Assembly (NCBI RefSeq): GCF_988243305.1 | Contig: NZ_OZ547139.1 | Length of the DNA: 64,000 nt | Strand: one strand, 5' to 3' | From: a plasmid | In this document: positions 30,866 through 63,391 of the stretch, piece by piece | How positions within the stretch are numbered: the first letter of the stretch is position 1 | Layout of the letters: every line of letters starts with the position of its first letter | Program-made: the position numbers and the translations under genes | The notes under the pieces: generated by a model | The model's database searches: none | What the model was told of the DNA's origin: nothing | Seen by the model: the letters and a program-made list of their open reading frames with translations, nothing else

Positions 30866-30874
30866 AATTTGTTA

Positions 30875-41148: not shown

Positions 41149-41598
41149 ATGGATATCAACTACTACGATAAACATCAGGAAGAATTTGAGGCGGTCACGC
41201 TGGCGCTGAAAGCCAATCTGGAAGAAGTTTGGGGCAGCAGCCTGAAAAATCAGGGGGAAAGCCTGGATGATCAGGTGACGTATATGAAGCTATTTGAAGA
41301 GCTGCAATACAACCTCAATCCGTACTACTTCAAGGAGAACACCTCAGCAAAAGAGATGGATGAAGATAAAGTAGCGGCCTTTGTGGCCAGAACCCGCGAC
41401 TATAAGTACGGCATTACCATTAAATCCTGGCCGGGACTCCCGCAGAAATGGCTGAAAGGCCGAATCAAACCTCTTCATCCTGTGGAAGGCACAAACCTGT
41501 GCTGGATCGACACGTCCAACATTGTGCATATCGGTGCCGATAGGCAGTTTGACGATCAATATTACCTCACCGTGACCACACAGAACGGTCAGAGTTAC
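41149..41598 (+). pseudogene. Unknown backbone gene, 3'-truncated by IS26
   Basis: The reading frame runs into the IS26 terminal IR at 41599, so the last 8 codons of the ORF-track protein are IS26 sequence. Confidence 0.6.
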
Positions 41599-42418
41599 GG
41601 CACTGTTGCAAATAGTCGGTGGTGATAAACTTATCATCCCCTTTTGCTGATGGAGCTGCACATGAACCCATTCAAAGGCCGGCATTTTCAGCGTGACATC
41701 ATTCTGTGGGCCGTACGCTGGTACTGCAAATACGGCATCAGTTACCGTGAGCTGCAGGAGATGCTGGCTGAACGCGGAGTGAATGTCGATCACTCCACGA
41801 TTTACCGCTGGGTTCAGCGTTATGCGCCTGAAATGGAAAAACGGCTGCGCTGGTACTGGCGTAACCCTTCCGATCTTTGCCCGTGGCACATGGATGAAAC
41901 CTACGTGAAGGTCAATGGCCGCTGGGCGTATCTGTACCGGGCCGTCGACAGCCGGGGCCGCACTGTCGATTTTTATCTCTCCTCCCGTCGTAACAGCAAA
42001 GCTGCATACCGGTTTCTGGGTAAAATCCTCAACAACGTGAAGAAGTGGCAGATCCCGCGATTCATCAACACGGATAAAGCGCCCGCCTATGGTCGCGCGC
42101 TTGCTCTGCTCAAACGCGAAGGCCGGTGCCCGTCTGACGTTGAACACCGACAGATTAAGTACCGGAACAACGTGATTGAATGCGATCATGGCAAACTGAA
42201 ACGGATAATCGGCGCCACGCTGGGATTTAAATCCATGAAGACGGCTTACGCCACCATCAAAGGTATTGAGGTGATGCGTGCACTACGCAAAGGCCAGGCC
42301 TCAGCATTTTATTATGGTGATCCCCTGGGCGAAATGCGCCTGGTAAGCAGAGTTTTTGAAATGTAAGGCCTTTGAATAAGACAAAAGGCTGCCTCATCGC
42401 TAACTTTGCAACAGTGCC
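41599..42418 (+). mobile_element. IS26 copy 1 (820 bp)
   Basis: 14-bp terminal IRs ggcactgttgcaaa (41599-41612) and tttgcaacagtgcc (42405-42418) flank the tnp26 sequence. Confidence 0.95.
41662..42366 (+). CDS. tnpA: IS26 transposase Tnp26 (234 aa, reference-type G184)
   Basis: [34 protein letters not shown]... recognised as Tnp26. Confidence 0.95.
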   Translation: MNPFKGRHFQRDIILWAVRWYCKYGISYRELQEMLAERGVNVDHSTIYRWVQRYAPEMEKRLRWYWRNPSDLCPWHMDETYVKVNGRWAYLYRAVDSRGRTVDFYLSSRRNSKAAYRFLGKILNNVKKWQIPRFINTDKAPAYGRALALLKREGRCPSDVEHRQIKYRNNVIECDHGKLKRIIGATLGFKSMKTAYATIKGIEVMRALRKGQASAFYYGDPLGEMRLVSRVFEM

Positions 42419-42675
42419 CTAAATCGCTGGCGAAGCAACTGGCCCCTAAAGGGATCCGTGTAAATGCTGTCGCGCCTGGGCCGTACTGGACGGTATTGCA
42501 GTGCTGCGGCGGCCAACCACAGGAAAAAATTGAGAAATTTGGTGCAAATGCGCCGCTTGGTCGCCCTGGCCAACCGGTAGAAATTGCTCCGCTGTATGTC
42601 ACTTTAGCGGCTGAAGAGAACAGCTATACATCCGGTCAGGTATGGTGTTCTGACGGGGGGACCGGAACCCTCTGA
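42419..42675 (+). pseudogene. 3' fragment of a short-chain dehydrogenase/reductase gene cut by IS26
   Basis: The SDR C-terminal pattern GIRVNAVAPGP...ITGQ-like (YTSGQVWCSDGG) starts right at the IS26 boundary. Confidence 0.7.
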
Positions 42676-47538: not shown

Positions 47539-49000
<1,462 letters not shown>

Positions 49001-51059
49001 GAAAAAACGGCTCCGCTCGCTGAAGGATCTGGATAAATCTGCATTGGCGCTCGCCAGCGCATGTTCGTACCTGCTGAAAGAAGAAACACCGGACGAATCG
49101 ATTCGTGCTGAGGTGTTCAGCTACATCCCAAGGCAAAAGCTGGCTGAAATCATCACGCTTGTCCGTGAAATTGCCCGGCCCTCAGACGATAATTTTCATG
49201 AAGAAATGGTGGAGCAGTACGGGCGCGTTCGTCGTTTCCTGCCCCATCTGCTGAATACCGTTAAATTTTCATCCGCACCTGCCGGGGTTACCACTCTGAA
49301 TGCCTGTGACTACCTCAGCCGGGAGTTCAGCTCACGGCGGCAGTTTTTTGACGACGCACCAACGGAAATTATCAGTCGGTCATGGAAACGGCTGGTGATT
49401 AACAAGGAAAAACATATCACCCGCAGGGGATACACGCTCTGCTTTCTCAGTAAACTGCAGGATAGTCTGAGGCGGAGGGATGTCTACGTTACCGGCAGTA
49501 ACCGGTGGGGAGATCCTCGTGCAAGATTACTACAGGGTGCTGACTGGCAGGCAAACCGGATTAAGGTTTATCGTTCTTTGGGGCACCCGACAGACCCGCA
49601 GGAAGCAATAAAATCTCTGGGTCATCAGCTTGATAGTCGTTACAGACAGGTTGCTGCACGTCTTTGCGAAAATGAGGCTGTCGAACTCGATGTTTCTGGC
49701 CCGAAGCCCCGGTTGACAATTTCTCCCCTCGCCAGTCTTGATGAGCCGGACAGTCTGAAACGACTGAGCAAAATGATCAGTGATCTACTCCCTCCGGTGG
49801 ATTTAACGGAGTTGCTGCTCGAAATTAACGCCCATACCGGATTTGCTGATGAGTTTTTCCATGCTAGTGAAGCCAGTGCCAGAGTTGATGATCTGCCCGT
49901 CAGCATCAGCGCCGTGCTGATGGCTGAAGCCTGCAATATCGGTCTGGAACCACTGATCAGATCAAATGTTCCTGCACTGACCCGACACCGGCTGAACTGG
50001 ACAAAAGCGAACTATCTGCGGGCTGAAACTATCACCAGCGCTAATGCCAGACTGGTTGATTTTCAGGCAACGCTGCCACTGGCACAGATATGGGGTGGAG
50101 GAGAAGTGGCATCTGCAGATGGAATGCGCTTTGTTACGCCAGTCAGAACAATCAATGCCGGACCGAACCGCAAATACTTTGGTAATAACAGAGGGATCAC
50201 CTGGTACAACTTTGTGTCCGATCAGTATTCCGGCTTTCATGGCATCGTTATACCGGGGACGCTGAGGGACTCTATCTTTGTGCTGGAAGGTCTTCTGGAA
50301 CAGGAGACCGGGCTGAATCCAACCGAAATTATGACCGATACAGCAGGTGCCAGCGAACTTGTCTTTGGCCTTTTCTGGCTGCTGGGATACCAGTTTTCTC
50401 CACGCCTGGCTGATGCCGGTGCTTCGGTTTTCTGGCGAATGGACCATGATGCCGACTATGGCGTGCTGAATGATATTGCCAGAGGGCAATCAGATCCCCG
50501 AAAAATAGTCCTTCAGTGGGACGAAATGATCCGGACCGCTGGCTCCCTGAAGCTGGGCAAAGTACAGGTTTCAGTGCTGGTCCGTTCATTGCTGAAAAGT
50601 GAACGTCCTTCCGGACTGACTCAGGCAATCATTGAAGTGGGGCGCATCAACAAAACGCTGTATCTGCTTAATTATATTGATGATGAAGATTACCGCCGGC
50701 GCATTCTGACCCAGCTTAATCGGGGAGAAAGTCGCCATGCCGTTGCCAGAGCCATCTGTCACGGTCAAAAAGGTGAGATAAGAAAACGATATACCGACGG
50801 TCAGGAAGATCAACTGGGCACACTGGGGCTGGTCACTAACGCCGTCGTGTTATGGAACACTATTTATATGCAGGCAGCCCTGGATCATCTCCGGGCGCAG
50901 GGTGAAACACTGAATGATGAAGATATCGCACGCCTCTCCCCGCTTTGCCACGGACATATCAATATGCTCGGCCATTATTCCTTCACGCTGGCAGAACTGG
51001 TGACCAAAGGACATCTGAGACCATTAAAAGAGGCGTCAGAGGCAGAAAACGTTGCTTAA
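49001..51059 (+). pseudogene. tnpA: Tn3-family (Tn1/2/3-type) tnpA, 5'-truncated by IS26 (C-terminal ~685 codons)
   Basis: The frame opens at the IS26 boundary and the C-terminus runs into the 38-bp Tn3 IR. Confidence 0.85.
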
Positions 51060-51092
51060 CGTGAGTTTTCGTTCCACTGAGCGTCAGACCCC
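51055..51092. mobile_element. 38-bp terminal inverted repeat of Tn1/2/3 (tnpA end)
   Basis: cttaacgtgagttttcgttccactgagcgtcagacccc is the reverse complement of GGGGTCTGACGCTCAGTGGAACGAAAACTCACGTTAAG. Confidence 0.9.
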
Positions 51093-51130
51093 TTATTTGA
51101 GTAAATGCGATTTCTGCCAGAAGGGCGGCA

Positions 51131-51205
51131 CAAAAAAACCCGACTGGTGAGATCGGGTTTTTATGTTTTGCCCCGGATGGAGGCGGGAACACCTAAACAA
51201 TTGAC
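51131..51205 (-). ncRNA. Candidate ~75-nt sRNA antitoxin (divergent from the toxin; its 5' part is complementary to the toxin leader repeat)
   Basis: Promoter TTGCAT (51240-51235), 17 nt spacer, TAATAT (51217-51212). Terminator hairpin aaacccga/tcgggttt (51136-51160) followed by U7. The body contains the reverse complement of repeat A, which is nearly the complement of repeat B (51359-51395). Confidence 0.45.
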
Positions 51206-51463
51206 GGTTAAATATTACGCCATGAGTGCAGTAAATGCAAACCACCCGGAATAGGGTATACTGCGCGGGTCAATCTGTTGACGTTCTTCTCCAGCCCCCG
51301 CTTACGCGGCGTGAACGGATTAAAGCCCTGGTTGAAAAACAGGTGGTGCTGTTTCAATGCCCTGGCTGGAGTGGGAACATCTAAACAATTGACGTGAGGT
51401 AGCCGCTGTGACAGGCAATGTAAGGGCGATCAGCGGTGTTCCTGCTCTGTATGGAGCAAACGG

Positions 51464-51559
51464 ATGATTAACTTGTTAATCGTCGTTCTGCGGGCTGTTG
51501 TTGCAGTGTCTAACGCTGTGATAGCGGTCCTGGAGCTGATCCGGCAGTATTTTGACTGA
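51464..51559 (+). CDS. Candidate type I toxin, 31-aa hydrophobic peptide MINLLIVVLRAVVAVSNAVIAVLELIRQYFD (DinQ/ZorO-like)
   Basis: GGAG 8 nt before the ATG. A bidirectional terminator at 51575-51604 follows. The core VIAVLELIR resembles DinQ LIALLELIR and ZorO LIAVLELL (from memory). Below the ORF-track cutoff. Confidence 0.5.
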   Translation: MINLLIVVLRAVVAVSNAVIAVLELIRQYFD

Positions 51560-51613
51560 CCGGAAACGTAACTAAAGGCGGGGGGACCACTCCCCGCCTT
51601 TTAACACAAACCT

Positions 51614-52123
51614 TCAGTTTACAGTCTGTTTAGCGGCCGACACCCACTTATACAGACACCCAACCGACAGGTTCAGATCAGCAGCAATTGCCTTAACTTT
51701 TTCCCCCGTTACTTTTCTGGCCTCCATCCTTTTCACGGCTTCAGCCCTGAGCGCTTCTGGTACCACTTTCACTACTGGCGAGTGCTTCCAGATCTGATGT
51801 GTCTGCGCTACGTTTCGCGCAGCCACTTTATGCAGCCTGGTGCTGGTTGCACGTTCCGGGGCGTGCTTCCTTCCTTCAGCCATGAGCGCGAGCTGTTCAT
51901 CGGGATTAATCTCGCCTCGCCGTATGCGGTTCAATACATTCTCTCTGCACTGACGGGAATGGCTGACGCTGGCAAGGGGGGTGTGTAACGGAATAGCCCA
52001 GCGTTCGCGGTATTCCCTGGCGTTCATCTGATGGGTTTTGTTCAGGTGCGGAGCCAGGAACGAGAAGTATTTTCCTCACTCCAGGCATTGAATTTTTTCC
52101 GTTAATTCTTCTTTATCAGCCAT
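51614..52123 (-). pseudogene. Ros/MucR-like zinc-finger regulator fused to a C-terminal HTH, interrupted by an in-frame TGA (52076-52078)
   Basis: AGGAGG then ATG 52123. MADKEELTEKIQCLE*GKYFSFLAPHLNKTHQMNAREYRERWAIPLHTPLAS aligns with Ros [41 protein letters not shown]. The stop codon sits at the second Cys. The ORF track shows only the 137-aa downstream part. Confidence 0.6.
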
Positions 52124-52170
52124 CGTTTGGCCTCCTGATTAACAACGCCGGCAAACGCCGGCGTTCAGGG

Positions 52171-54258
52171 TTACATCTCGATCATCGGAAACAGATCGTC
52201 TTCCTGGTGGTAAAGCACGTCGTCTGTGTCCGTCCCATCAAGCCAGTCAGCGAACAGTTCAAACAGGCACACCGACATTTCCTCCGGTGAAATTGCGCCA
52301 CACTGCAGCTCGTAGAAGACCTCAATTTTTTCCAGCAGGCTGTTGGCCGCTTTGTCGTAGCCGAACAGCTTGATCGGCGGGAAGTGCATTGCATCCGGGT
52401 TCGTTTCCGCCAGTTCATCATCCTTACGTTCCGGATAGATGCTGTACAGCGTCGCCGGCGATGGCGGTAATACCTCGATAAAGCGGTTTATCCGCATCGG
52501 CAGTTCGCTGGAAAACTTCTCATTGTCCGGAATGTAAAACGCTGCGCTGCGTACCAGGGCATCCTGGAAAGAAATTACCCCCTGACCTTCGGTCTGCTTA
52601 CGCAGCTCACGAATGTTCACGCGGTCCTTTTCACGGATTTGGTACAGATCCCCTTCCCGGACCGTTTTGGAAAACGTGCCGTGTTCGGCTTCCTGCCCGG
52701 AGAGCTCTGAATAATAATCCTGGCCGACGGTTTCGCGCAGTATTTCAAAGGTTTTCCGGTCTTCAATCGACTCAAAATATTTCACGCGGGTGTTGGCGAT
52801 CAGCGAATCCACCTCGCCGTTCGCGCCGCGGGCGAGCGACGGGTGATCCTGGGAGGAAAATACGCCCATTTTTTCCAGTGAACGCATCTGCGCACTCAGC
52901 GTATCCATACCGCTGGTGAAATACTGGCCCAGCTCGTCATAAATCAGCCCGTATGGCGCCTGATTATTCAGCGCGTGAGTGAGCAGGACTTCCTCTTTTT
53001 TCCCTTCCAGCTGGTAGCCCAGGTCCTTACTGATGGTCATTCGCTGCAGCGTCACATATAAACGGCCAAGCGTGGCCGCTTCACCGCGTGACAGCTCCAG
53101 CGACGGGATCATGACGATGAGAATGCGGTCATTGTGGAAAATATCGTCCATCCGGATATCGCCGCTGTCTTCCGGAAAAACATGGCCATAAGTTTCATTG
53201 AACAGGGAGAGCGTCTTCAGGAACTGACGGCTCATGTAGTTATGCTGTTCGAAGGCGCGGGCTTCCCACGTTTCCGGGTATTCCGCGTTGGCCAGCAGGA
53301 AGCCTGGTGTATTTTCCAGATAACTTTCCAGCGCGGCGTAACCCTCGCTGTGCCAGCCGTTTTTCTTTGCCTCAACGTACAGCGCGGCCATTGCCGGCAG
53401 CGACATGTTTTTCTGAATAGTGCGCTGTGACAAAAGCAGTTCGCCGCGGGCGCGCTTATAACACAGGGCATTGATCAGCGCCGACATCATGGCTTTTGCC
53501 GTATCCTGCCACTGTGCCGAATCTCCGCCCACCTGGGGGAGCATGGATTCCATCAACTGGATGATGAAGGTCGGCGGGGCAACGCTGAAGAGGTTGACTG
53601 AGTTGGATTGCGCGGGGATGCTTTCCTGCTTCACCAGGTTCACGAACCTGTCAATACTGCCGGTCAGCAGGTTGAGGACGTAATAATCATCCTCACGGCC
53701 GAAACGGCGCGCCAGCGACCAGGTGGCGAAGGCCAGCTTGTTATCTGCTTTACCGTCTGAGAGGCAGTAGCCACGGCACCACAGCAGGAAGTTAACGATA
53801 AACCCATAGAAGGTTTCGGTTTTACCCGACCCGGTGGTACCAAAAAATACCATGTGGCGCAGCAGGTCCGTCATGTTCAGCCACAGCTCGCGGCCGAACA
53901 GGCGTCCCCGCTCATACCCGACATATAAAATTCCCTTCGCTTTCTTTCGCTCCCGGACCTTATGCGGGATGCGAATGGGCCCCAGACGGTATTCCGCCTG
54001 GGTTTCCGTGGTCAGGGTGTCGTCGAACATTTCGCAGTCTTTCGGCATTCGCAGCGGTGGCCGGAATTTACGATCCGTGAATGCCACCATCAGCGGCGGA
54101 AGGATGAGGATGCTCAGCAGCATGGTAAAGGGGAGAAACAGACCCAGCACGGTCAGTATGGCCAGCAGGCCAAACTGTACGTTCGGAGTGAGGAACCACT
54201 CCATGAACGAACCATCTGGGCGGATGACTTTTTTACTGTCTACAGATTCCTGTTGCAT
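52171..54258 (-). CDS. trbC: TrbC, DotL/IcmO-like type IV coupling protein (695 aa)
   Basis: N-terminal TM helices and Walker A FFGTTGSGKTE. Follows trbA-trbB as in I-type systems. Confidence 0.8.
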   Translation of the reverse strand: MQQESVDSKKVIRPDGSFMEWFLTPNVQFGLLAILTVLGLFLPFTMLLSILILPPLMVAFTDRKFRPPLRMPKDCEMFDDTLTTETQAEYRLGPIRIPHKVRERKKAKGILYVGYERGRLFGRELWLNMTDLLRHMVFFGTTGSGKTETFYGFIVNFLLWCRGYCLSDGKADNKLAFATWSLARRFGREDDYYVLNLLTGSIDRFVNLVKQESIPAQSNSVNLFSVAPPTFIIQLMESMLPQVGGDSAQWQDTAKAMMSALINALCYKRARGELLLSQRTIQKNMSLPAMAALYVEAKKNGWHSEGYAALESYLENTPGFLLANAEYPETWEARAFEQHNYMSRQFLKTLSLFNETYGHVFPEDSGDIRMDDIFHNDRILIVMIPSLELSRGEAATLGRLYVTLQRMTISKDLGYQLEGKKEEVLLTHALNNQAPYGLIYDELGQYFTSGMDTLSAQMRSLEKMGVFSSQDHPSLARGANGEVDSLIANTRVKYFESIEDRKTFEILRETVGQDYYSELSGQEAEHGTFSKTVREGDLYQIREKDRVNIRELRKQTEGQGVISFQDALVRSAAFYIPDNEKFSSELPMRINRFIEVLPPSPATLYSIYPERKDDELAETNPDAMHFPPIKLFGYDKAANSLLEKIEVFYELQCGAISPEEMSVCLFELFADWLDGTDTDDVLYHQEDDLFPMIEM

Positions 54259-54270
54259 AGCGGCTCCGGG

Positions 54271-55221
54271 TTATTCTCCTATTGCCTGCTGCAGGCGGGC
54301 ATCGTCTTTGACGACGGAAACCGGGATCACATCACCCGAATCGGCAACGATGGACGGGGTGCCGATAAACCCGAATTTCGCAAATGCCATATTGTTCGCG
54401 TCAACCAGGCGGGCGCCGGTGGTATCCGGGGCTGTTTTCGGATCGTCAATTTTCGGGTTCATGGTGGTGTATCCCATGTTAATCGTGTCTTCCCAGCTTT
54501 TCAGTCGGGTATCTTTCCCGGTATCGAGTACAGGAGCGGCGCGGACCATCGAGCGCAGGTCGCCATAAACGGACACGGGGAAAATCTCGACGTTATAGCG
54601 TTTGCTCAGTTCCTGCAGCCGGGGTTCCAGCGCGCGGCAGTGCGGGCACATCGGATCGGAAAACACATACAGGGTGTGTTTATGCCCGGTTGAAAGCGAG
54701 ATCGTAAAGCGTCCGCTGGTGACGGCATCTTTCAGTGACAGCAAGTCGTTATCAGCCAGTTTTTTAGGGGCTTCAGGTGCTGCCTGAACCTGCAGCTGCT
54801 CCGGCGCAGTGACAGGCTGCTGCAGACCCGGCGCGGGAGCATACGAGTTTGCCTGCAGTGGCTGTGCCGGCTGATGCATATTCATCAACGCGCCGTTGAT
54901 GGAGACGATAAAGCCCAGCGCGGCGACTGGCCAGAAGATAAAGTTAGACAGCCGGCGCACGGCATTGAGTCCGCGCTGCTGTTTCAGCTTTTTACGGATA
55001 TTGTTCAGCGCCTCGATGGCCTGATATTCGTTTTCAAAGCGGAACAGCTGCACCGCTTCACCAGAAAACGTATTGTGCGTCAGGATGTGGCCGCTGCCGG
55101 CATCATGGCCAAGTCCAAAATGACAGGCTGACAGGGGGAAGGAGTGCAGGGCTTGTTCCTGGTAGCTTCCGTCAGCGGAAAGATAAAGTGTGTTGCGATC
55201 GGTTTTTACGGTGAGTTTCAT
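54271..55221 (-). CDS. trbB: TrbB, DsbC/thioredoxin-like periplasmic protein (316 aa from MKLTVKT)
   Basis: CPHC active-site motif (SDPMCPHCRALEP). The start is moved to ATG 55221 (GAGGA upstream). Confidence 0.7.
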   Translation of the reverse strand: MKLTVKTDRNTLYLSADGSYQEQALHSFPLSACHFGLGHDAGSGHILTHNTFSGEAVQLFRFENEYQAIEALNNIRKKLKQQRGLNAVRRLSNFIFWPVAALGFIVSINGALMNMHQPAQPLQANSYAPAPGLQQPVTAPEQLQVQAAPEAPKKLADNDLLSLKDAVTSGRFTISLSTGHKHTLYVFSDPMCPHCRALEPRLQELSKRYNVEIFPVSVYGDLRSMVRAAPVLDTGKDTRLKSWEDTINMGYTTMNPKIDDPKTAPDTTGARLVDANNMAFAKFGFIGTPSIVADSGDVIPVSVVKDDARLQQAIGE

Positions 55222-55231
55222 ACTTCCTCGC

Positions 55232-56539
55232 TTAGAGTTCCAGGTGATCGGGACGGGTTGCCGGCTGAGGTTTAGCCGGCGTCGGTTCATCGTCTGTCAG
55301 TCGCAGACTGTTGTTCGGGGTGTCGTGCGGAGCTGCAGGCGGCGTAGCCGGCTCGTCTTCCGCTTCAGCGTCAGATTCAAATGCAAATGGCGGTATAACG
55401 TCTTCCTGCCAGTGAGCGACCGGAATGGCGGGATCGCGGCGGTCAATATGGCGGTAATGGAGCAGATCCAGCTCAAGGCCCAGCACGGCCGCCCGCACGG
55501 TTGGCGGGAATTTCGCCGCCTTTTCTTCATCGAGCGTCAGCCGGTAACTTTCGCACTGACTCCAGGCAATAACGCCACCTCCTTCAATGAAGAACTTCCC
55601 GCGGCCGGCGCTTGAAAGTGCATACCATAACGTGCGGTCCACGCCTTTCAGCCACCGGAAATTTGCGGATGGCAGCTGCAGGTCATCATCGAACAGCGCG
55701 TAGAGTAGCGAACGGGAGCTGCGGCGCCCCTTTGCAAATTCTCTGAACGCTTCGCACTGGCTGGCGACGGTCCAGAGCCCGGCGGCCAGCGAATAATCAG
55801 GGAAGCCGTCTTTAGTCCGCAGGCAGGAACGGTTGAGATCGTCGAGAATGGATTTAGCCGTTGGCCGGTCGCCCATAAACCGCAGATGTACAAACGAGGC
55901 TGCGAGTGCTTTTTCCCAGGGTGCCAGGGAAAGGGCCGCCCCTTCGGGAGCCAGGTTTACCTGTGACAGGAATACCTTATGTGCGGCTTTTTTACGGAGG
56001 CGGCGTTTAGCGGTATCAATCAGGTTATGTTCCTGGGCAAACTCAACGGGTGACTGCGCGCTGCGTGCTTCTTCCGGATCTTCATTCAGCAGCAGCTGAT
56101 CGAGGTGGCCAAACCGGGCGAGGATATGGGCTATCCCCGGATAGTTTTTTACCATCACCCAGGGCAGGTTCCGGATGGTCAGTTTACGGGTCAGACGGTA
56201 GTAAGGATTGCGCGAGATAACCCAGACGAACAACCCGATGATTAAAATGAACAGGGGAAAGAGCACGCTGGCCGTGTCGTTCATCACGCTGATAAAGTCC
56301 CACAGCGAAACCTGGTGATTATACCGCGCCGCCGACAGCAGCATGTCCCGGCGCTCGGTCGCATTACCCGGTGTAATGGCGTCCGGCAGTACACCGTAGA
56401 TCCAGTAAAGCAGGCGACAGGCTCCGTAAATCACATAATCACGAAAGCCAAACCACATCACTGTGATCATGATGAGAAGGGCCCCGATAATCATCAGGCC
56501 ATCATCCCCTCCCCCTTTCCGTTGTGGCTGGTTTTGCAT
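55232..56539 (-). CDS. trbA: TrbA, DotM/IcmP-like membrane protein (435 aa)
   Basis: N-terminal TM helices; assigned by synteny with trbB/trbC. Confidence 0.65.
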   Translation of the reverse strand: MQNQPQRKGGGDDGLMIIGALLIMITVMWFGFRDYVIYGACRLLYWIYGVLPDAITPGNATERRDMLLSAARYNHQVSLWDFISVMNDTASVLFPLFILIIGLFVWVISRNPYYRLTRKLTIRNLPWVMVKNYPGIAHILARFGHLDQLLLNEDPEEARSAQSPVEFAQEHNLIDTAKRRLRKKAAHKVFLSQVNLAPEGAALSLAPWEKALAASFVHLRFMGDRPTAKSILDDLNRSCLRTKDGFPDYSLAAGLWTVASQCEAFREFAKGRRSSRSLLYALFDDDLQLPSANFRWLKGVDRTLWYALSSAGRGKFFIEGGGVIAWSQCESYRLTLDEEKAAKFPPTVRAAVLGLELDLLHYRHIDRRDPAIPVAHWQEDVIPPFAFESDAEAEDEPATPPAAPHDTPNNSLRLTDDEPTPAKPQPATRPDHLEL

Positions 56540-56934
56540 CAGAACCTCAGAGAATTTTGGTAAACCTTCCCGATATACCAGGCCTTACGCGCCGGCGTAT
56601 TGGAGTGATAGCGGCCGACACCCTGCCAGAAATCCCCCCCTTCGAGAATGATGTTGTATTTGAGGATGTAGGCACTGGCCATTGCAGAGGCGCAAAAGTC
56701 GTGCTGCAGCTGCTCCGCTCTCACACCAAAATCAGCCGCCAGCTTATTCGCCCAGATGGTGTTTATCTGGAATGCGCCGTAATCGTAAGTACCGTTTTTG
56801 TTTTTATTTTTCATTCCCGGTTTCCCGCCTTCAGTCAGCCACAAGGCGAGGAATCCACGGAGAGGAATGTGATAAATCTGTGCTGCTTCAACCATGCAGG
56901 TTGGCAGCGGGATTGAGGGCGGGGCATCAACCAT
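56539..56934 (-). CDS. trbN: TrbN, lytic transglycosylase-like protein (131 aa)
   Basis: SLT-like pattern (YDYGAFQINTIW...GRYHS). First gene of the trb cluster. Confidence 0.65.
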   Translation of the reverse strand: MVDAPPSIPLPTCMVEAAQIYHIPLRGFLALWLTEGGKPGMKNKNKNGTYDYGAFQINTIWANKLAADFGVRAEQLQHDFCASAMASAYILKYNIILEGGDFWQGVGRYHSNTPARKAWYIGKVYQNSLRF

Positions 56935-57038
56935 AACAATCTCCTAATGATTTCTATTTCGAGTAAAAAATATACCATCAAAAGGAGATTTTTTTAAATC
57001 ATTTTGGTGCGCATAATTGAGAGGGTGTCAGAGGAATT

Positions 57039-57389
57039 TTATTTGCCTTCGACAGAGACAATGTTGCCCTCATTCGCATTTTCCCATGTCGGGATTTCGC
57101 CACTCAGCGTGCAGCGAAGCGTCTCTTTTCCGACGGTAAGCCGTGCGCCACTGCTGTAGTAATGACTTTCATACAGGCAGGCGGTTTTCTTTTGTTCCGG
57201 GGTCAGTGTAAGACTGGCATTCTGATCCTTTGCCAGCAGTTGTACAAGATGTTGGTTTGTCTGTACCTGTTCACCCAGAATGCTGCTGAGCAACGAATCG
57301 GTTTTCGGCGCGGATACACTCTGAGCAAAGGCACTGCAACTGATTACGGATGCGGTCAGAATGAGAGCAATCTTCGTGTTGGATTTCAT
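57039..57389 (-). CDS. Small exported protein of unknown function (116 aa from MKSNTKIAL)
   Basis: Signal peptide MKSNTKIALILTASVISCSAFA. Confidence 0.55.
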   Translation of the reverse strand: MKSNTKIALILTASVISCSAFAQSVSAPKTDSLLSSILGEQVQTNQHLVQLLAKDQNASLTLTPEQKKTACLYESHYYSSGARLTVGKETLRCTLSGEIPTWENANEGNIVSVEGK

Positions 57390-57501
57390 TTCACTTTCTC
57401 CATTAAAAAAATCGGTAATCATTTTCTGGATCATTTAAATTAGGTCTGAAAACCGGCCTGAGTGTCAAGCCGATTCTGTTTAAAAATTAACAGGGGATAA
57501 A

Positions 57502-58155
57502 ATGATTCAGTCACGTAATAAATATCTGCAATTTATGCTGGTTCTGCTGGCAGCCTGGGCCATAGCCTGGGGGGCCCTGTTTGTCATGGGGCAGACCGTT
57601 CTGCTCTATGGGCTGGGGAAAAATACGCTGTTCTTCATTCATGGTGCTGTTCTGGTGTACCTGCTGTGTGTGTTCCTGGTTTACCGCCGCTGGGTCGCAC
57701 CGCTACCGGTTGTTGGCCAGCTGCGTAACGTTGGCGCACCGTGGCTGGTCGGTGCGATGGCCGTGGTGTATGTCGGAGAATTTCTGCTGGGTAAAGTGCT
57801 GGACCTGCCCGCTGAGCCGTTTATGACGAAACTTTTTGCCGATAAATCCATACCCGACGTGATCCTGACGTTGCTGGCCATCTTTATCCTTGCACCGCTG
57901 AATGAGGAAACGCTGTTCCGGGGGATCATGCTGAACGTCTTCCGTTCACGGTACCGCTGGACGATGTGGCTGGGGGCGCTGATAACGTCATTGCTGTTCG
58001 TCGCCGCGCACAGCCAGTATCAGAACCTGCTGACCCTGGCAGAACTGTTCCTGGTGGGGTTGATTACATCAGCTGCCCGGATCAGAAGCGGCGGCCTGCT
58101 GCTGCCGGTATTGCTGCATATGGAAGCAACCGCGCTGGGTTTACTGTTTGGCTGA
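57502..58155 (+). CDS. CPBP-family (CAAX/Abi) intramembrane metalloprotease (217 aa)
   Basis: Motifs PLNEETLFRG, FVAAHSQY and LLHMEATA in a polytopic protein. Confidence 0.75.
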   Translation: MIQSRNKYLQFMLVLLAAWAIAWGALFVMGQTVLLYGLGKNTLFFIHGAVLVYLLCVFLVYRRWVAPLPVVGQLRNVGAPWLVGAMAVVYVGEFLLGKVLDLPAEPFMTKLFADKSIPDVILTLLAIFILAPLNEETLFRGIMLNVFRSRYRWTMWLGALITSLLFVAAHSQYQNLLTLAELFLVGLITSAARIRSGGLLLPVLLHMEATALGLLFG

Positions 58156-58247
58156 AAGTTATATTTTTATTAAACATTGCGCGTTAAAGCCTGGTATGTT
58201 TTTTTAGTGGATGTTATATTTAAATATAACTTTTATGGAGGTGAACA

Positions 58248-58505
58248 ATGCATACCACCCGACTGAAGAAGGTTGGCGGCTCAGTTATGCTGACCGTTCC
58301 ACCGGCACTGCTGAATGCGCTGTCGCTGGGTACAGATAATGAAGTTGGCATGGTCATTGATAATGGCCGGCTGATTGTGGAGCCGCACAGACGCCCGCAG
58401 TATTCACTGGCTGAGCTACTAGCGCAGTGCGATCCGAATGCTGAAATCTCGGCTGAAGAACGTGAATGGCTGGATGCGCCGGTGGCTGGTCAGGAGGAAA
58501 TCTGA
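58248..58505 (+). CDS. pemI: PemI antitoxin (MazE/AbrB fold)
   Basis: MHTTRLKKVGGSVMLTVPPALLNALSLGTDNEVGMVIDNGRLIVEP, near-identical to R100 PemI as remembered. Confidence 0.9.
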   Translation: MHTTRLKKVGGSVMLTVPPALLNALSLGTDNEVGMVIDNGRLIVEPHRRPQYSLAELLAQCDPNAEISAEEREWLDAPVAGQEEI

Positions 58506-58506
58506 C

Positions 58507-58839
58507 ATGGAAAGAGGGGAAATCTGGCTTGTCTCGCTTGACCCTACCGCAGGTCATGAGCAGCAGGGAACGCGGCCGGTGCTGATTGTCACGCCGGCTG
58601 CTTTTAACCGCGTGACCCGTCTGCCTGTTGTTGTGCCCGTGACCAGCGGAGGCAATTTTGCCCGCACTGCTGGCTTTGCGGTGTCGCTGGACGGCGCCGG
58701 CATACGTACCACCGGCGTTGTGCGTTGCGATCAACCCCGGACGATCGATATGAAAGCCCGCGGCGGCAAACGACTCGAACGGGTGCCAGAGGCTATCATG
58801 GATGACGTTCTTGGTCGTCTGGCCACGATTCTGACTTGA
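58507..58839 (+). CDS. pemK: PemK toxin (MazF-family endoribonuclease, 110 aa)
   Basis: MERGEIWLVSLDPTAGHEQQGTRPVLIV...; the ATG lies 1 nt after the pemI stop. Confidence 0.9.
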   Translation: MERGEIWLVSLDPTAGHEQQGTRPVLIVTPAAFNRVTRLPVVVPVTSGGNFARTAGFAVSLDGAGIRTTGVVRCDQPRTIDMKARGGKRLERVPEAIMDDVLGRLATILT

Positions 58840-58864
58840 CCCATTGTTTCGACAGAGAACCATC

Positions 58865-59092
58865 ATGATGAAATCAGGAAATTTGATAAGGTATTTGTGG
58901 TTTTTTATCTGCGTTGTCACATGCCTGGTGATGGCGTATTTATGCAGCATGGTTAATCCATATGATGACAGAACTTTGTCCTCCGCCTTTACCAGCTTTC
59001 TGAGGCCAATCGGGGCCGGGTTTGGTACGGCGATTGTCCTTATCCTGATCACTAGCATTGCGCGAGAGCTGCGGTGTTTCTGCAATAAATAA
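58865..59092 (+). CDS. Small two-TM membrane protein of unknown function (75 aa)
   Basis: ORF with hydrophobic helices; start uncertain (58844 or 58865). Confidence 0.45.
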   Translation: MMKSGNLIRYLWFFICVVTCLVMAYLCSMVNPYDDRTLSSAFTSFLRPIGAGFGTAIVLILITSIARELRCFCNK

Positions 59093-59148
59093 AAGCGTGC
59101 CGGCCCGATATTTATGCCGGCATTGCCTGTTTCCTGAAGTCTGCAATA

Positions 59149-59168
59149 TACTGTATATAAAAACAGTT
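59149..59168. promoter_or_regulatory. LexA box of mucAB
   Basis: TACTGTATATAAAAACAGTT (CTG-N10-CAG), 16 nt upstream of mucA. Confidence 0.85.
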
Positions 59169-59183
59169 ATTGGAGGCTAGATT

Positions 59184-59618
59184 ATGGCGCTGGATCTCGT
59201 TTATCCCCGGCCTTCAGTGGAAGGCGCCGCACTTCCTTTTTTTGCCGAACCCGTTGCGGCCGGCTTTCCCAGTCCGGCCGCAGGCTATGAGGCAAATGAA
59301 CTTAACCTGCATGATTACTGCGTGCGGCGTCCGGCCGCAACGTACTTCTTGCGTGTGTCCGGAGATTCTATGCGTGATGCCCGCATTCATGATGGCGATG
59401 TGCTGGTCGTCGATCGGGCAGAAGAGCCCCGGCACGGCAGCATCGTGATTGCCAGCATCGATAATGAATTTACGGTCAAGCAGCTGCAGCTCCGCCCTTA
59501 CCCCTGCCTGATGCCGCTGAATCCGGCTTTTCCGCCAATCAGGTTTGATCCGGAGGCGCTGCAGATATGGGGTGTGGTTACGTTCACTGTTATGAGTCAC
59601 CGCCCGTGTACGCCTTAA
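59184..59618 (+). CDS. mucA: MucA (UmuD-like, S24 self-cleaving peptidase)
   Basis: [30 protein letters not shown]. Confidence 0.9.
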
Positions 59619-60871
59619 TCGACGTCAATTCGATGTACTGCAGCTGCGAAGAGGCGTTCCGCCCTGATTTGCGGGGGCGCCCTGTGGTCGTCCTCAGCAA
59701 CAACGACGGGGCGCTTGTTGCGGTCAATCGCGCGGCGAAAGCGCTGGGAGTGCGCCGCGGGGAACCCTATTTCCGCTGCCGTCGCCTGCTGGAACAGCAT
59801 AACGTCGCCGTATTCAGTTCCAACTACACCCTTTACGCCTCATTCTCCGCCAGATTTGCAACCGTAGTGGAAAGTCTGGCGCCGCGGACGTTTGTTTACT
59901 CAATTGATGAGCTCTTTGCGGATGCGTCTCACATGGAGGGCGTGATGTCGCCGCAGGCGTTTGGCCAGCTTTTGCGGGCTGAAGTGCTGCGCCAGACAAC
60001 GCTCACCTGTGGAGTGGGCGTCGCGCCAACGAAGACGCTGGCCAAGCTGTGCAACCACGCCGCAAAGACGTGGCCTGCCACCGGGGGGGTTGTGGCGCTC
60101 AGTGATCCTGTGAGACTGAAAAGGCTGATGAGCCTGGTGTCGGCCGGCGATGTGTGGGGGGTTGGCCATCGTACCGAAAAAGGGCTGGCGACAATGGGGA
60201 TCAAAACGGCGCTGGCGCTCGCAGAGATGGATATCCGACTTGCACGCCGGCTGTACGGTGTGACGCTGGAACGGACCATCCGTGAGCTGCGTGGCGAGGC
60301 CTGCTTTGCCCTGGAAGAAGGTACCGGCGCGAAACAGCAGCTTGTTGTATCCCGCTCGTTTGGATCGCGGGTCACGCAACTGGCGCAGATGCAGCAGGCG
60401 GTGACTAAATATGCCACACGGGCAGGGGAAAAGTTGCGCCAGGAAAACCGTCTGGCGAAGGTGGTAACGGTCTTTATCCGCAGCAGTGCTTATGACGCCG
60501 GCGGTGTGCCCTACAGTAACCAGGCTACGGAAGTGCTTTCCGTGCCAAGCCAGGATACCCGCGACATCATCGCCGCGGCGCAGCTGGGGCTGTCGCGTAT
60601 CTGGCGTGAGGGTGTGCGGTATGCAAAAGCCGGCGTGATGCTCAGCGATCTGCAGGGACATGAAACCCAGCTGGATCTGTTTGCGCCGGCTGCAGTGCGG
60701 CCGGGCAGCGAAAAACTGATGGCCACCATCGACAAAATAAACAGGGAAGGAAGGTCAAGGGTCTTCTTCGCCGGGGAAGGTATTGATCCGGAATATGCCA
60801 TGCGCCGTGAAATGTTGTCTCCGGCCTACACCACGCAGTGGAAGGATATTCCCGCGGCGTTTATGCGATAA
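59606..60871 (+). CDS. mucB: MucB (UmuC-like Y-family polymerase, GTG start, 421 aa)
   Basis: (V)[34 protein letters not shown] aligns with the UmuC N-terminus. Overlaps the mucA end. Confidence 0.9.
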
Positions 60872-60893
60872 CAGCGATGTGCAGGCCAGTCTG

Positions 60894-61742
60894 TCAGCCC
60901 TGCAGCCGTTCCTGCTCCTGCAGCAATGCCAGATGGTATGCGGCAATGGCGTTCACCACCCCGGCCGTCATCCGTGCATCGGCGATTGCCGAGTGTGCCT
61001 CCCCTTCCCAGGCCAATGCTGCCTGACTGGCCGCGCTGGCCAGCGAAATGGTGCCATAGCGATTGGTGGCCCCAAAATACCCTGCTGCCAGCTCCATCGC
61101 GCAATATACTGTCAGTTCTCCCAGCCAGTCGGCCGGATCGCCATGTGCGGCGGCCGTCTGTTTCAGAATGCGGGTATCAAAGGGGGCGTTAAAGATAATC
61201 ACTGGCCGGTCCCCGATGGCGTGTCGCAGCTGCAGCGCCACATCTGGCCAGGATGGTGCGCCGCTGAGTGCCGGCTCATCGATACCATGCACGGCGGCGG
61301 CCTGCGCCTCGATGGCGACCGTCGGCTTCAGGCGGGTTTCAAATATCACCCGGCCGGCCGCATCGGTCAGGCCGATTTCCAGCGCTTCTGCGGTATTACC
61401 CAGCCCCGTCGTTTCGGTATCCAGAAAGAGCGGCGCCAGACTCAGCCAGTCGTGTGCCCGCCGTGCCATCCGGCCACTGGTGCTGTTAAGCCGGGACAGG
61501 ACGGAAAGACGCAGGCCGGCCTGCTGCTGCTTCTCGGTCGGCGGCCGTTTTTCCCGCATCGGAACACAGTCTGCAATGCGGTATACGGCGTACTTGCCGC
61601 CATAGGCGCTTTTGTACCATTTCACCGGCTCAGCACCGGGAGCCGGCTTCATTCTGAATTCATCGCGCAGGCGCCCTTTCGTGAAGCACCGATCGCCGGC
61701 TATCGCCTCTGCGCGTCGTGTGGCCAGCTCATCATTCTTCAT
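60894..61742 (-). CDS. DEDDh (DnaQ-like) 3'-5' exonuclease with a ~95-aa N-terminal extension (282 aa)
   Basis: Exo motifs LFLDTETTGL, VIIFNAPFDTRIL, HSAIADA. Confidence 0.8.
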   Translation of the reverse strand: MKNDELATRRAEAIAGDRCFTKGRLRDEFRMKPAPGAEPVKWYKSAYGGKYAVYRIADCVPMREKRPPTEKQQQAGLRLSVLSRLNSTSGRMARRAHDWLSLAPLFLDTETTGLGNTAEALEIGLTDAAGRVIFETRLKPTVAIEAQAAAVHGIDEPALSGAPSWPDVALQLRHAIGDRPVIIFNAPFDTRILKQTAAAHGDPADWLGELTVYCAMELAAGYFGATNRYGTISLASAASQAALAWEGEAHSAIADARMTAGVVNAIAAYHLALLQEQERLQG

Positions 61743-61744
61743 GG

Positions 61745-62065
61745 TTATTCCATCTCCGTCAGGCGTTTGTGATAAACCTCTCTGGCGATCTCCAGGCCTG
61801 CCTCTGTCAGCCCAAACGCGAGCGTCAGTGACTGATTATCCCGGTATTTGCTGAGCAGGCCGTGACGGTTCAGCGTATGGCAGGAGCGACGAAAATTGGT
61901 ATCGGCAACGGGCTGGAGGCGTCCCTTATTGAGGATGCTGAAAAGCTGCATCGCCGGGAACGGGCCCGCCAGCTGACGTTCTGCCAGACCATACAGAACA
62001 AACAATACGTCTTTTTGCACACCGGAGAGCCGCATCGAGGGGGCTTTACTTTGCATCTTATTCAT
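61745..62065 (-). CDS. Winged-helix DNA-binding protein (106 aa), coupled to the exonuclease gene
   Basis: The stop lies 2 nt before the exonuclease ATG. Two palindromes sit in its upstream region. Confidence 0.55.
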   Translation of the reverse strand: MNKMQSKAPSMRLSGVQKDVLFVLYGLAERQLAGPFPAMQLFSILNKGRLQPVADTNFRRSCHTLNRHGLLSKYRDNQSLTLAFGLTEAGLEIAREVYHKRLTEME

Positions 62066-62209
62066 GTGTCACGTCATTAAGGAATTAATGACAAAGTAAC
62101 CTAATTGATGTGAGACATCAATAATATTGTGTTCATAACGGGAAATCAGGAGTCCGAAAAAGAAAATGCCGCTCTTGACGGCGGCTTGTTTTCCCTGGTG
62201 TCGGGAGAA

Positions 62210-62902
62210 TTATGGTTTCTGGTCTGGGTCAATGCGCAGGGCGCTGTCTGTGAGCAAATCCAGTGCTGCCGTCAGATGCTGACTCCGCCCGCCGTGATAA
62301 TCCGGCCACGGAAGAAAGGGTTTTGACGTATCAGACATGAACATGATACCGGTCGGGCAGCGCCACTCCGTGGGGGTTCCCTTGTTGTAATGAACCAGCA
62401 GTACTGAACGGTCACACTGCACGTCATTACTGTCATCGTTGTTCAGTACAAAAGTGGCCACGATGCCGGCATCGGGCCTGGACACAAAAAGCAGGCTGTT
62501 GGCAAAAATAACGGCAATCACCACTGAGGCAATGGCCGCACCGGTATACCAGAAACGGCCGTTTTTCCAGGCCCGATAGCCATACAGAATGCACAGCAGA
62601 ATGGCGGCAGCGATACCTGCCCACTGCGCACCGACTGACAGGCGGGAGAGTGCATCCATCGATAACGGCCGGCTCAGCGCATAAAATGTGACAAGGAAAG
62701 GTGAAGCCAGCGCCAGCGTCAGCAGAACGAAAACGAGGGGTAAGAAGCGGTTGCCGGTATAGCTCCCATTGCCAAGCGCCGTCATCGTGCGGATCATCTC
62801 ACTGAACGCCATGATCATCATAAAGCAGCATAAAGCCATGTATAACATTAAAACATCCCCAAACTGTCCGCGTGATATGGCCGGATTTTCGGCCTGTTCC
62901 AC
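62210..62902 (-). CDS. Polytopic membrane protein with a C-terminal soluble domain (230 aa), unknown function
   Basis: 4-5 hydrophobic helices in the translation. Confidence 0.55.
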   Translation of the reverse strand: MEQAENPAISRGQFGDVLMLYMALCCFMMIMAFSEMIRTMTALGNGSYTGNRFLPLVFVLLTLALASPFLVTFYALSRPLSMDALSRLSVGAQWAGIAAAILLCILYGYRAWKNGRFWYTGAAIASVVIAVIFANSLLFVSRPDAGIVATFVLNNDDSNDVQCDRSVLLVHYNKGTPTEWRCPTGIMFMSDTSKPFLPWPDYHGGRSQHLTAALDLLTDSALRIDPDQKP

Positions 62903-62916
62903 ATAGTCCCGACCCC

Positions 62917-63126: not shown

Positions 63127-63128
63127 GG

Positions 63129-63347: not shown

Positions 63348-63391
63348 GTAAAACCCCCTTCTGGCGACGGTAGCGCCAGTCTCTGTCTGTA

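What the first reader, a model, noticed from the sequence alone, without database searches (positions are those of the whole stretch)
51614..52123. Ros/MucR-type zinc-finger regulator with an in-frame TGA exactly at the second zinc-ligand cysteine
Seen in sequence. A strong AGGAGG SD and ATG at 52123 open a frame that reads MADKEELTEKIQCLE, then TGA (52076-52078), then GKYFSFLAPHLNKTHQMNAREYRERWAIPLHTPLAS and onward. The frame continues unbroken into the 137-aa ORF of the track.

The text aligns with the Ros/MucR finger as I remember it ([39 protein letters not shown]). The spacing is the same: C-x2-[stop]-x9-H. The stop codon therefore replaces the second Cys (TGC/TGT to TGA is a single change). 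The C-terminus carries an extra HTH (VKAIAADLNLSVGCLYKWV), an unusual fusion.

There are three readings. It may be a recent nonsense mutation, making this a pseudogene. A truncated finger-less protein may be made from ATG 52027. Least likely, the UGA may be recoded (Sec or read-through). I see only a weak 5-bp stem downstream and nothing like the fdhF SECIS.

The gene lies at the end of the trbN-A-B-C operon, so it is a candidate transfer regulator.
Basis: partly seen in the sequence, partly recalled or inferred. Interest (0 to 1): 0.55.

Follow-up and report, generated by a model that had tools for sequence, protein, structure and literature searches.

The report
Nonsense-mutated MucR-type regulator gene orf46
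This is the already known, non-essential plasmid gene orf46 (a Ros/MucR-type zinc-finger protein of IncM resistance plasmids), knocked out by a single-base stop-codon mutation that a small circulating plasmid lineage carries; it is an ordinary pseudogene, not a recoding signal.

Summary
On the minus strand an AGGAGG/ATG (52136-52121) opens a frame that hits TGA at 52078-52076 and then runs on, in frame, to the stop at 51614. The gene is orf46 of IncM plasmid pCTX-M3 (169 aa, annotated MucR family regulator). With the codon restored it matches Pfam ROS_MUCR (51.6 bits against a cut-off of 25.4) and the solved Ros domain 2JSP. The TGA sits at Cys16, the second ligand of an invariant C-x2-C-x9-H-x4-H motif.

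pCTX-M3 and pQC11_4 were read directly and have TGT there. None of 106 PLSDB plasmids or 11 complete E. coli genomes matches the 81 bases around the TGA exactly. Over 15,003 bases the window differs from plasmid pIT-Cfr-01/2015 at this one base only.

The mutation is not a base-call error. The same 137-aa remnant is called on 14 contigs of draft assemblies named Klebsiella pneumoniae and Enterobacter hormaechei, and all six loci fetched carry the same TGA.

There is no SECIS and no Shine-Dalgarno sequence before the downstream ATG. Published deletions of orf46 change neither conjugation nor mobilisation, and IncL (pOXA-48-type) plasmids lack the gene.

Verdict: a recent, inherited and tolerated nonsense mutation in a known accessory gene. 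Interest is low.

The parts
51614..52123 (-). orf46 (pCTX-M3 nomenclature; orthologue of WP_011091091.1, MucR family transcriptional regulator, 169 codons), here a pseudogene with one in-frame stop
   Evidence: Translation. It is identical to pCTX-M3 orf46 except at one base. Annotation of the pCTX-M3 record. Named Orf46, 169 aa, ROS/MUCR superfamily, in PMC6112013.
52131..52136 (-). Shine-Dalgarno sequence AGGAGG, 7 nt upstream of the ATG at 52123-52121
   Evidence: Read directly from the sequence.
52076..52078 (-). In-frame TGA at codon 16. The pCTX-M3 and pQC11_4 alleles read directly have TGT (Cys16, the second zinc ligand). The variant base is window position 52076.
   Evidence: This is the only difference in 15,003 bases from NZ_MH722216.1. 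None of 106 PLSDB records and none of 11 E. coli records is identical over the 81 nt around it. The same TGA is present in all six draft-assembly loci fetched.
52079..52123 (-). Residual 15-codon reading frame (MADKEELTEKIQCLE) that the strong SD/ATG would still translate. It contains Cys13 (TGC, 52085-52087).
52031..52048 (-). His26 (CAC, 52046-52048) to His31 (CAT, 52031-52033), the two histidine ligands of the C-x2-C-x9-H-x4-H motif. They now lie downstream of the stop and upstream of the next ATG.
   Evidence: C13, C16, H26 and H31 are invariant in 8 full-length homologues down to 53% identity. Alignment to Ros87 2JSP.
51614..52027 (-). 137-aa remnant ORF starting at Met33. It lacks all four zinc ligands and keeps the second half of the Ros domain and the C-terminal HTH-like region (residues about 123-168 of the full protein). 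There is no Shine-Dalgarno sequence upstream.
   Evidence: Pfam ROS_MUCR scores only 16.5 bits, below the 25.4 cut-off; HTH_23 scores 22.5 bits, below 24.6. The upstream sequence CACCTGAACAAAACCCATCAG has no GGAG-like run. Draft assemblies call it as EMD6373989.1 and others.
51574..51601 (-). Intrinsic-terminator-like hairpin (10-bp stem, 7 G-C pairs) ending the trb/orf46 transcript. It lies between orf46 and the convergent dqlB.
   Evidence: It is conserved in IncL plasmids that lack orf46.
52145..52164 (-). 8-bp G+C-rich hairpin (ACGCCGGC-GTTT-GCCGGCGT) in the 47-nt trbC-orf46 spacer. It is part of the orf46 cassette.
   Evidence: Read from the sequence. It is absent together with orf46 from IncL plasmids. 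It did not meet the terminator scan's T-tail rule.
51607..52167 (-). 561-bp orf46 cassette (hairpin, SD and gene) that is cleanly missing from pOXA-48-type IncL plasmids
   Evidence: Pairwise alignment with NZ_CP034283.1.
52171..54258 (-). trbC (coupling-protein gene, 695 aa), the upstream neighbour and last essential gene of the trb operon
   Evidence: Listed as TrbC, 695 aa, in PMC6112013.

Best explanation
The locus is orf46 of an IncM (pCTX-M3-like) conjugative resistance plasmid. It encodes a small accessory DNA-binding protein made of a Ros/MucR-type C2H2 zinc-finger domain at the N-terminus and a probable helix-turn-helix at the C-terminus.

In this plasmid a single transversion at window 52076 (coding strand TGT to TGA) turned the Cys16 codon, the second zinc ligand, into a stop. 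Ribosomes that load at the strong AGGAGG/ATG therefore release a 15-residue peptide, and no zinc-finger protein is made. The gene is a young pseudogene.

Shown:
- the gene's identity;
- the single-base difference from the intact allele;
- that the intact allele is overwhelmingly the common one;
- that the TGA allele is inherited in a small plasmid sub-lineage found in assemblies named K. pneumoniae and E. hormaechei.

Inferred:
- that no functional product is made;
- that the loss is neutral or nearly so. This follows because orf46 is experimentally dispensable for conjugation and mobilisation, because it sits last before a terminator and so causes no polar effect, and because the sister IncL group lacks it altogether.
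For: Single-base change:
- pCTX-M3 and pQC11_4 have TGT where the window has TGA.
- Window 48998-64000 differs from NZ_MH722216.1 at one base in 15,003, and that base is 52076.

Frequency of the alleles:
- All 106 PLSDB records and all 11 complete E. coli genome records that hold the 81-nt stretch fall below 100% identity to the TGA allele. Nearly all are annotated as an intact MucR family CDS.
- The intact 169-aa protein is seen on 965 contigs, the 137-aa remnant on 14.

Real and inherited:
- Six independent NCBI draft assemblies carry the same TGA.
- Five of these loci are 100% identical to the window over 4.7-6.2 kb, and one has 3 mismatches.
- The source names are K. pneumoniae and E. hormaechei.

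The residue matters:
- C13, C16, H26 and H31 are invariant in 8 full-length homologues down to 53% identity.
- The finger aligns to the Ros87 finger and the restored protein matches Pfam ROS_MUCR at 51.6 bits.

Loss is tolerated:
- An orf46::cat replacement has wild-type conjugation frequency and does not change mobilisation (PMC6112013 and PMC7440800).
- IncL plasmids lack the 561-bp cassette.
- Other disrupted alleles of the family are on record.
Against: - No expression data exist for this allele, so low-level UGA read-through or re-initiation at Met33 cannot be excluded by sequence alone.
- The wild-type function of Orf46 is unknown, so 'neutral loss' rests on laboratory matings only.
- Comparison with pQC11_4 suggests the intact gene is under purifying selection. 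I count 5 synonymous against 4 non-synonymous differences in the alignment. The gene is therefore not generally decaying.
- The 14 contigs may come from one outbreak, so the allele's persistence could be hitch-hiking.
Confidence: 0.9

Rival explanations
1. A truncated, finger-less 137-aa protein is made from ATG 52027 (Met33). It acts through its C-terminal HTH-like domain as an altered or dominant-negative regulator.
For: - The ORF is intact, and gene callers report it as a protein (EMD6373989.1 and others).
- The C-terminal 45 residues are predicted as three helices with pLDDT of about 80-88. They give weak HTH_23, HTH_28 and HTH_Tnp_1 matches in 7, 6 and 4 of 8 homologues.
- The stop lies only 48 nt upstream of the ATG, so some post-termination re-initiation is conceivable. 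This last point is established knowledge of bacterial translation, not something tested here.
Against: - There is no Shine-Dalgarno-like sequence in the 20 nt before ATG 52027.
- In the predicted fold, the bases just 3' of the ATG pair in an 8-bp stem.
- No homologue starts at this position.
- The product would lack all four zinc ligands and half of the Ros domain (ROS_MUCR 16.5 bits, below the 25.4 cut-off).
- The HTH matches are all below the Pfam thresholds, and the Foldseek hits are not significant (best E 0.2).
Confidence: 0.08
2. The UGA is recoded, either as selenocysteine in place of the zinc-ligand cysteine or by efficient read-through, so a full-length protein is still produced.
For: - UGA is the leakiest stop codon in E. 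coli, and a following G is not the strongest termination context (established knowledge, not tested here).
- Sec-for-Cys exchange at metal ligands occurs in genuine selenoproteins.
- The 73 nt from the stop onward fold somewhat better than shuffled sequence (z -2.26).
Against: - No Rfam family of any kind, SECIS included, reaches even E = 0.7 in the stretch from the UGA to the next ATG. The only two weak hits lie at the terminator.
- The predicted fold is a 5-bp stem at the UGA plus an 8-bp stem closing a large irregular loop, not an fdhF-type hairpin.
- The downstream sequence is base-for-base the same as in TGT alleles, so nothing has co-evolved with the UGA.
- UGA is found in only about 1% of contigs, on a backbone otherwise identical to TGT plasmids.
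- Ordinary read-through would insert mainly Trp, which cannot bind zinc (established knowledge).
Confidence: 0.02
3. The TGA is a sequencing or assembly error, and the real plasmid has TGT.
For: It is the only difference from a close relative in 15 kb, and it is absent from every complete plasmid in PLSDB and from every complete E. coli genome record.
Against: - The identical base is present in six separately assembled NCBI genomes, out of 14 contigs in all, from sources named for two species.
- The site is not in a homopolymer.
- One of those loci has three further differences from the window, which implies descent rather than a shared artefact.
Confidence: 0.02

Closest known systems
Orf46 of IncM plasmid pCTX-M3 (WP_011091091.1; Dmowski et al. 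2018, PMC6112013)
   Same: - It is the same gene at the same position, downstream of trbC and before the terminator and dqlB.
- All 510 bases are identical except one.
- It has the same 169-codon frame, SD and terminator.
   Different: Codon 16 is TGA instead of TGT, so the window's copy cannot make the zinc-finger protein. The wild type itself has no known target and no conjugation phenotype when deleted.
Ros of Agrobacterium tumefaciens and MucR of Brucella/Sinorhizobium (Pfam PF05443; Ros87 structure 2JSP)
   Same: - The prokaryotic C2H2 zinc-finger DNA-binding domain is shared: C-x2-C-x9-H-x4-H, followed by the conserved Y-R-E-(K/R)-W-x-(L/I)-P helix.
- The alignment covers residues 8-61 against 19-71 of Ros87 at E 1.8e-8.
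- The Pfam match covers profile positions 63-115 of 123.
   Different: - The N-terminal domain of about 55 residues, which forms the higher-order oligomers needed for H-NS-like silencing, is missing (PMC9779718). Only 12 residues precede the first Cys.
- About 105 extra C-terminal residues end in an HTH-like three-helix unit.
- The gene is plasmid-borne in Enterobacterales rather than chromosomal in alpha-proteobacteria.
- Binding to AT-rich DNA was not tested.
Bacterial selenoprotein genes with UGA plus SECIS (for example E. coli fdhF)
   Same: An in-frame UGA sits at a position that is Cys in homologues.
   Different: There is no SECIS, no conservation of the UGA, and no sequence change accompanying it. 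It does not work like one.

Membership tests
Ros/MucR family (Pfam PF05443) | Profile match above the curated gathering score | tested here: met
   With codon 16 restored, the protein scores 51.6 bits (E 1.3e-13) against a cut-off of 25.4. All 8 homologues match. The window's own longest ORF (137 aa) scores only 16.5 bits and fails on its own.
Ros/MucR family (Pfam PF05443) | Complete zinc-coordinating motif C-x2-C-x9-H-x4-H encoded in one uninterrupted frame | tested here: not met
   The second Cys codon is TGA in the window. The motif is complete and invariant in pCTX-M3, pQC11_4 and 8 homologues. By descent the window holds a member of the family, but as a pseudogene.
Ros/MucR family (Pfam PF05443) | N-terminal oligomerisation domain (about residues 1-55 of MucR) that supports H-NS-like silencing | tested here: not met
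   The Pfam match covers only profile positions 63-115 of 123, and the protein has 12 residues before Cys13. The role of this domain is taken from PMC9779718.
Ros/MucR family (Pfam PF05443) | Zinc binding and binding to AT-rich DNA | not testable with these tools
   This needs purified protein (metal analysis, EMSA). The AlphaFold model of the finger region is unreliable (pLDDT 34-38).
Pseudogene by recent nonsense mutation | Differs from an intact orthologue by a single base that creates the stop, on an otherwise identical background | tested here: met
   One difference in 15,003 bases from NZ_MH722216.1, at window 52076: TGT against TGA.
Pseudogene by recent nonsense mutation | The intact allele predominates among relatives, and the stop is heritable rather than a read error | tested here: met
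   None of 106 PLSDB and none of 11 E. coli records has the allele. Contig counts are 965 for the intact protein and 14 for the remnant. The same TGA is in 6 of 6 fetched assemblies.
Selenocysteine / programmed UGA recoding | SECIS stem-loop immediately 3' of the UGA | tested here: not met
   No Rfam hit between the UGA and the next ATG, even at E up to 10. The predicted fold lacks an fdhF-type hairpin. The downstream sequence is identical to that of TGT alleles.
Helix-turn-helix DNA-binding domain (Pfam HTH_23, HTH_28, HTH_Tnp_1) at the C-terminus | Profile match above the gathering score, or a significant structural match | tested here: inconclusive
   - HTH_23 scores 21.8 bits against a cut-off of 24.6.
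- 7 of 8 homologues match at E below 0.01, the best at 3.4e-5.
- AlphaFold predicts three helices (123-139, 143-150, 154-168) at pLDDT of about 80-88.
- The Foldseek PDB hits are all HTH domains, but the best E-value is 0.2.
Regulator of IncM conjugative transfer (like orf35 and orf36) | Deletion changes transfer or mobilisation frequency, or tra transcript levels | tested here: not met
   From the literature, not computed here. The orf46::cat replacement has the same conjugation efficiency as pCTX-M3, and the deletion does not influence mobilisation (PMC6112013, PMC7440800). Homologues are not syntenic with trbC.

The most novel reading that the evidence does not exclude
Loss of Orf46 is not neutral. 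It may be selected in the K. pneumoniae / E. hormaechei plasmid sub-lineage, for example by relieving Orf46-mediated repression of plasmid or host genes. Alternatively, the HTH-only remnant from Met33 may be made and rewire regulation. In either case the recurrent disruptions of this gene family and its clean absence from the very successful IncL pOXA-48 plasmids would reflect repeated adaptive loss of a plasmid-borne MucR-like silencer in Enterobacterales.
Probability: 0.07. Interest if true: 0.4.

Novelty: already known. Interest (0 to 1): 0.12.

Why it matters
It matters little beyond annotation. The 137-aa ORF should be labelled as the remnant of a nonsense-mutated orf46, not as a protein, and no recoding should be inferred.

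There is minor epidemiological value. The T-to-A change at codon 16 is a clean single-base marker of one IncM plasmid sub-lineage seen in assemblies named for two species.

The wild-type Orf46 remains functionally uncharacterised. It has a Ros-type finger without the oligomerisation domain, joined to a probable HTH, and sits on plasmids of Enterobacterales. That is the only open biological question here, and this allele is a natural knock-out for studying it.

Tried and rejected
- **Exact-pattern scan of genome contigs.** I scanned with the 47-nt site, leaving N at the variant base, and found nothing. Species-representative genomes evidently do not hold this plasmid stretch, so the scan was uninformative.
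- **SECIS and other RNA families.** Rfam with an E-value threshold of 10 over 51400-52400 gave only two chance-level hits, both at the terminator. Recoding was rejected.
- **Own promoter for orf46 or for the remnant.** The sigma-70 scan found none in 51300-52500. This weak negative is consistent with read-through from trbC.
- **NCBIfam.** There was no specific model hit.
- **Structure.** The AlphaFold2 model from an 8-sequence alignment was poor overall (mean pLDDT 57.6). The finger region was unmodelled and only the C-terminal three helices were confident. Foldseek against the PDB gave no significant match. I therefore drew no fold-based conclusion beyond 'compatible with an HTH'.
- **Synteny as evidence of a transfer role.** Three homologues lie in unrelated contexts: a genomic island, a plasmid leading region after psiB-psiA, and a short contig with an LPD29 gene. 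Linkage to trbC is not conserved.
- **Sequencing error.** I considered this first, because the allele is absent from all complete plasmids searched. I rejected it once six independent assemblies showed the same base.

Full report
**What is in the sequence.** The minus strand was read. AGGAGG lies at 52136-52131 and, after a 7-nt spacer, ATG lies at 52123-52121. The frame reads MADKEELTEKIQCLE and then TGA at 52078-52076. The same frame continues without another stop (GKYFSFLAPHLNKTHQ, Met33 at 52027, and so on) to the stop at 51616-51614. The 137-aa ORF in the mechanical ORF list (51614-52027) is the part from Met33 onward. Upstream on the same strand lie trbC (52171-54258, 695 aa), trbB, trbA and trbN. 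Downstream lie a strong terminator-like hairpin (51601-51574) and a convergent 31-aa ORF (51464-51559).

**Which gene it is.** An 801-base query around the site matches IncM (IncL/M-typed, MPF_I, MOBP) plasmids of Klebsiella, Enterobacter, Escherichia, Citrobacter and Serratia. The best match is pCTX-M3 (NC_004464.2) at 99.9% identity. That record annotates a 510-base CDS at the same place, WP_011091091.1, 'MucR family transcriptional regulator'. [quoted passage not shown]

**The single-base difference.**
- Alignment of the window with pCTX-M3 and with the more distant pQC11_4 shows TGT (Cys) in both where the window has TGA.
- Across window 48998-64000 (15,003 bases) the window differs from pIT-Cfr-01/2015 (NZ_MH722216.1) at one position only, 52076, which is the third base of this codon.
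- Over the same stretch it differs from pCTX-M3 at a handful of positions.

**Is the Ros/MucR assignment real?** With codon 16 restored, the protein matches Pfam ROS_MUCR at 51.6 bits (E 1.3e-13; cut-off 25.4) over residues 9-61, corresponding to profile positions 63-115 of 123. It also matches the solved Ros87 domain (PDB 2JSP) at E 1.8e-8, with CLECGKYFSFLAPHLNKTH aligned to [19 protein letters not shown]. The motif is C13-x2-C16-x9-H26-x4-H31. In eight full-length homologues down to 53% identity, C13, C16, H26 and H31 are all invariant. None of the homologues starts at the downstream ATG.

**How the protein differs from canonical MucR.** It lacks the N-terminal oligomerisation domain of about 55 residues that underlies H-NS-like silencing (PMC9779718). 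It also carries about 105 extra C-terminal residues. The last 45 of these give sub-threshold HTH_23, HTH_28 and HTH_Tnp_1 matches: 21.8 bits against 24.6 for the query, and 7 of 8 homologues below E 0.01. They are predicted as three helices at pLDDT of about 80-88. The model as a whole is poor (mean pLDDT 57.6), and Foldseek hits, although all HTH domains, are not significant. I rate the C-terminal HTH as plausible, not shown.

**How common the TGA allele is, and whether it is real.**
- An 81-nt query centred on the codon finds 106 PLSDB plasmids and 11 complete E. coli genome records. Every one is below 100% identity, and nearly all are annotated with an intact MucR-family CDS.
- That alone would fit a base-call error. 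However, an exact look-up of the 137-aa remnant finds it called on 14 contigs of NCBI draft assemblies.
- All six loci fetched carry the same TGA. Five are 100% identical to the window over 4.7-6.2 kb. One has three further mismatches and a different junction beyond the IS26 boundary.
- The source names for this protein are Klebsiella pneumoniae and Enterobacter hormaechei. The intact 169-aa sequence is on 965 contigs.
- The mutation is therefore real, heritable, rare (about 1% of contigs in this protein cluster) and present in assemblies named for two species. That in turn implies that the mutant plasmid still transfers.

**Consequences for expression.** The strong SD/ATG would now yield a 15-residue peptide. 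The next possible start is Met33. It has no Shine-Dalgarno-like sequence (upstream CACCTGAACAAAACCCATCAG), and the bases just 3' of it are paired in the predicted local fold. A product from Met33 would lack all four zinc ligands and scores only 16.5 bits on ROS_MUCR.

**Recoding.** No Rfam family, SECIS families included, appears between the UGA and the next ATG, even at E up to 10. The predicted structure is a 5-bp stem at the UGA plus an 8-bp stem closing a large irregular loop. The downstream sequence is identical in TGT alleles, so nothing has evolved to serve the UGA. Ordinary UGA leakage would mainly insert Trp (established knowledge), which cannot restore zinc binding. Because orf46 is the last gene before the terminator, no polar effect on other genes is expected (inference).

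**Is it a transfer regulator?** This has been tested for the intact gene. pCTX-M3 orf46::cat conjugates at the same frequency as the parent plasmid. The authors state that deleting orf46 does not influence plasmid mobilisation, and they used the locus as a neutral site for a selection cassette (PMC6112013, PMC7440800, PMC8125031). By contrast, deleting orf35 or orf36 raises mobilisation efficiency. Genomic evidence agrees in three ways:
- The sister IncL plasmids (pOXA-48 type, several hundred records) lack a clean 561-bp cassette, window 51607-52167, which includes the small hairpin after trbC, the SD and the gene.
- Homologues elsewhere sit in unrelated contexts: a genomic island, a plasmid leading region after psiB-psiA, and a short contig.
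- Several other disrupted alleles of the family are on record: split, frameshifted and truncated.
Against general decay, the intact gene looks constrained. The motif is invariant, and I count 5 synonymous against 4 non-synonymous differences between the window and pQC11_4. Its function is probably real but conditional, and it is unknown.

**Verdict.** The finding is a correct and careful observation of an ordinary event. A single-base nonsense mutation has inactivated a known, dispensable accessory gene of an IncM resistance plasmid, and the allele is carried by a small circulating sub-lineage. The gene family is known, the gene is named in the literature, and there is no evidence for recoding or for a functional remnant. 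What remains open is what wild-type Orf46 does. This allele is a natural knock-out for that question but does not itself answer it.

Noticed in passing
window 16675-17212: A 45-nt tandem repeat with 12.0 copies and 93% matches. pCTX-M3 aligns here with only about 224 bases (roughly 5 copies), inside its pri / LPD7-domain gene. This looks like an in-frame 15-residue variable-number repeat in the plasmid primase gene.
   Followed up: partly
window 26377-30962: Five dispersed direct copies of a roughly 95-nt element (63-94% identical to the reference copy), spaced 0.9-1.3 kb apart in the region that corresponds to the pCTX-M3 leading region. Their function was not examined.
   Followed up: no
window 51464-51559 (+): A 31-aa ORF (MINLLIVVLRAVVAVSNAVIAVLELIRQYFD), annotated in relatives as the DinQ-like type I toxin DqlB. 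It is convergent with orf46 and separated from it only by the hairpin at 51574-51601. It is retained in IncL plasmids that lack orf46.
   Followed up: partly
window 41597-42419 and 48181-49000: Two IS26 copies bracket a roughly 5.8-kb module that matches the widespread qnrB4 / pspF-pspA segment, which is usually linked to blaDHA-1.
   Followed up: partly
window 1-41601 versus 48998-64000: The backbone is a mosaic. The tra and leading-region part is only 97.7-99.2% identical to pCTX-M3, whereas the trb, pemIK and umuDC part is 99.94-100% identical. This suggests recombination between IncM sub-lineages.
   Followed up: no
proteins P0013 and P0018 (both listed with a longest contig of 43,723 bp), P0015 (87,190-bp contig), P0033: Other disrupted alleles of the orf46 family are on record. 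There is a pair of N-terminal and C-terminal fragments whose junctions overlap at 'IR(R)', which suggests an insertion. There is also a frameshifted 95-aa form and a 101-aa form. Inactivation of this gene appears to be recurrent.
   Followed up: partly
window 61139-61153: A 3-base length difference from pCTX-M3 inside the 3'-5' exonuclease gene. The closest relatives (NZ_MH722216.1 and NZ_CP063010.1) share it, so it marks a lineage and is not an error.
   Followed up: no
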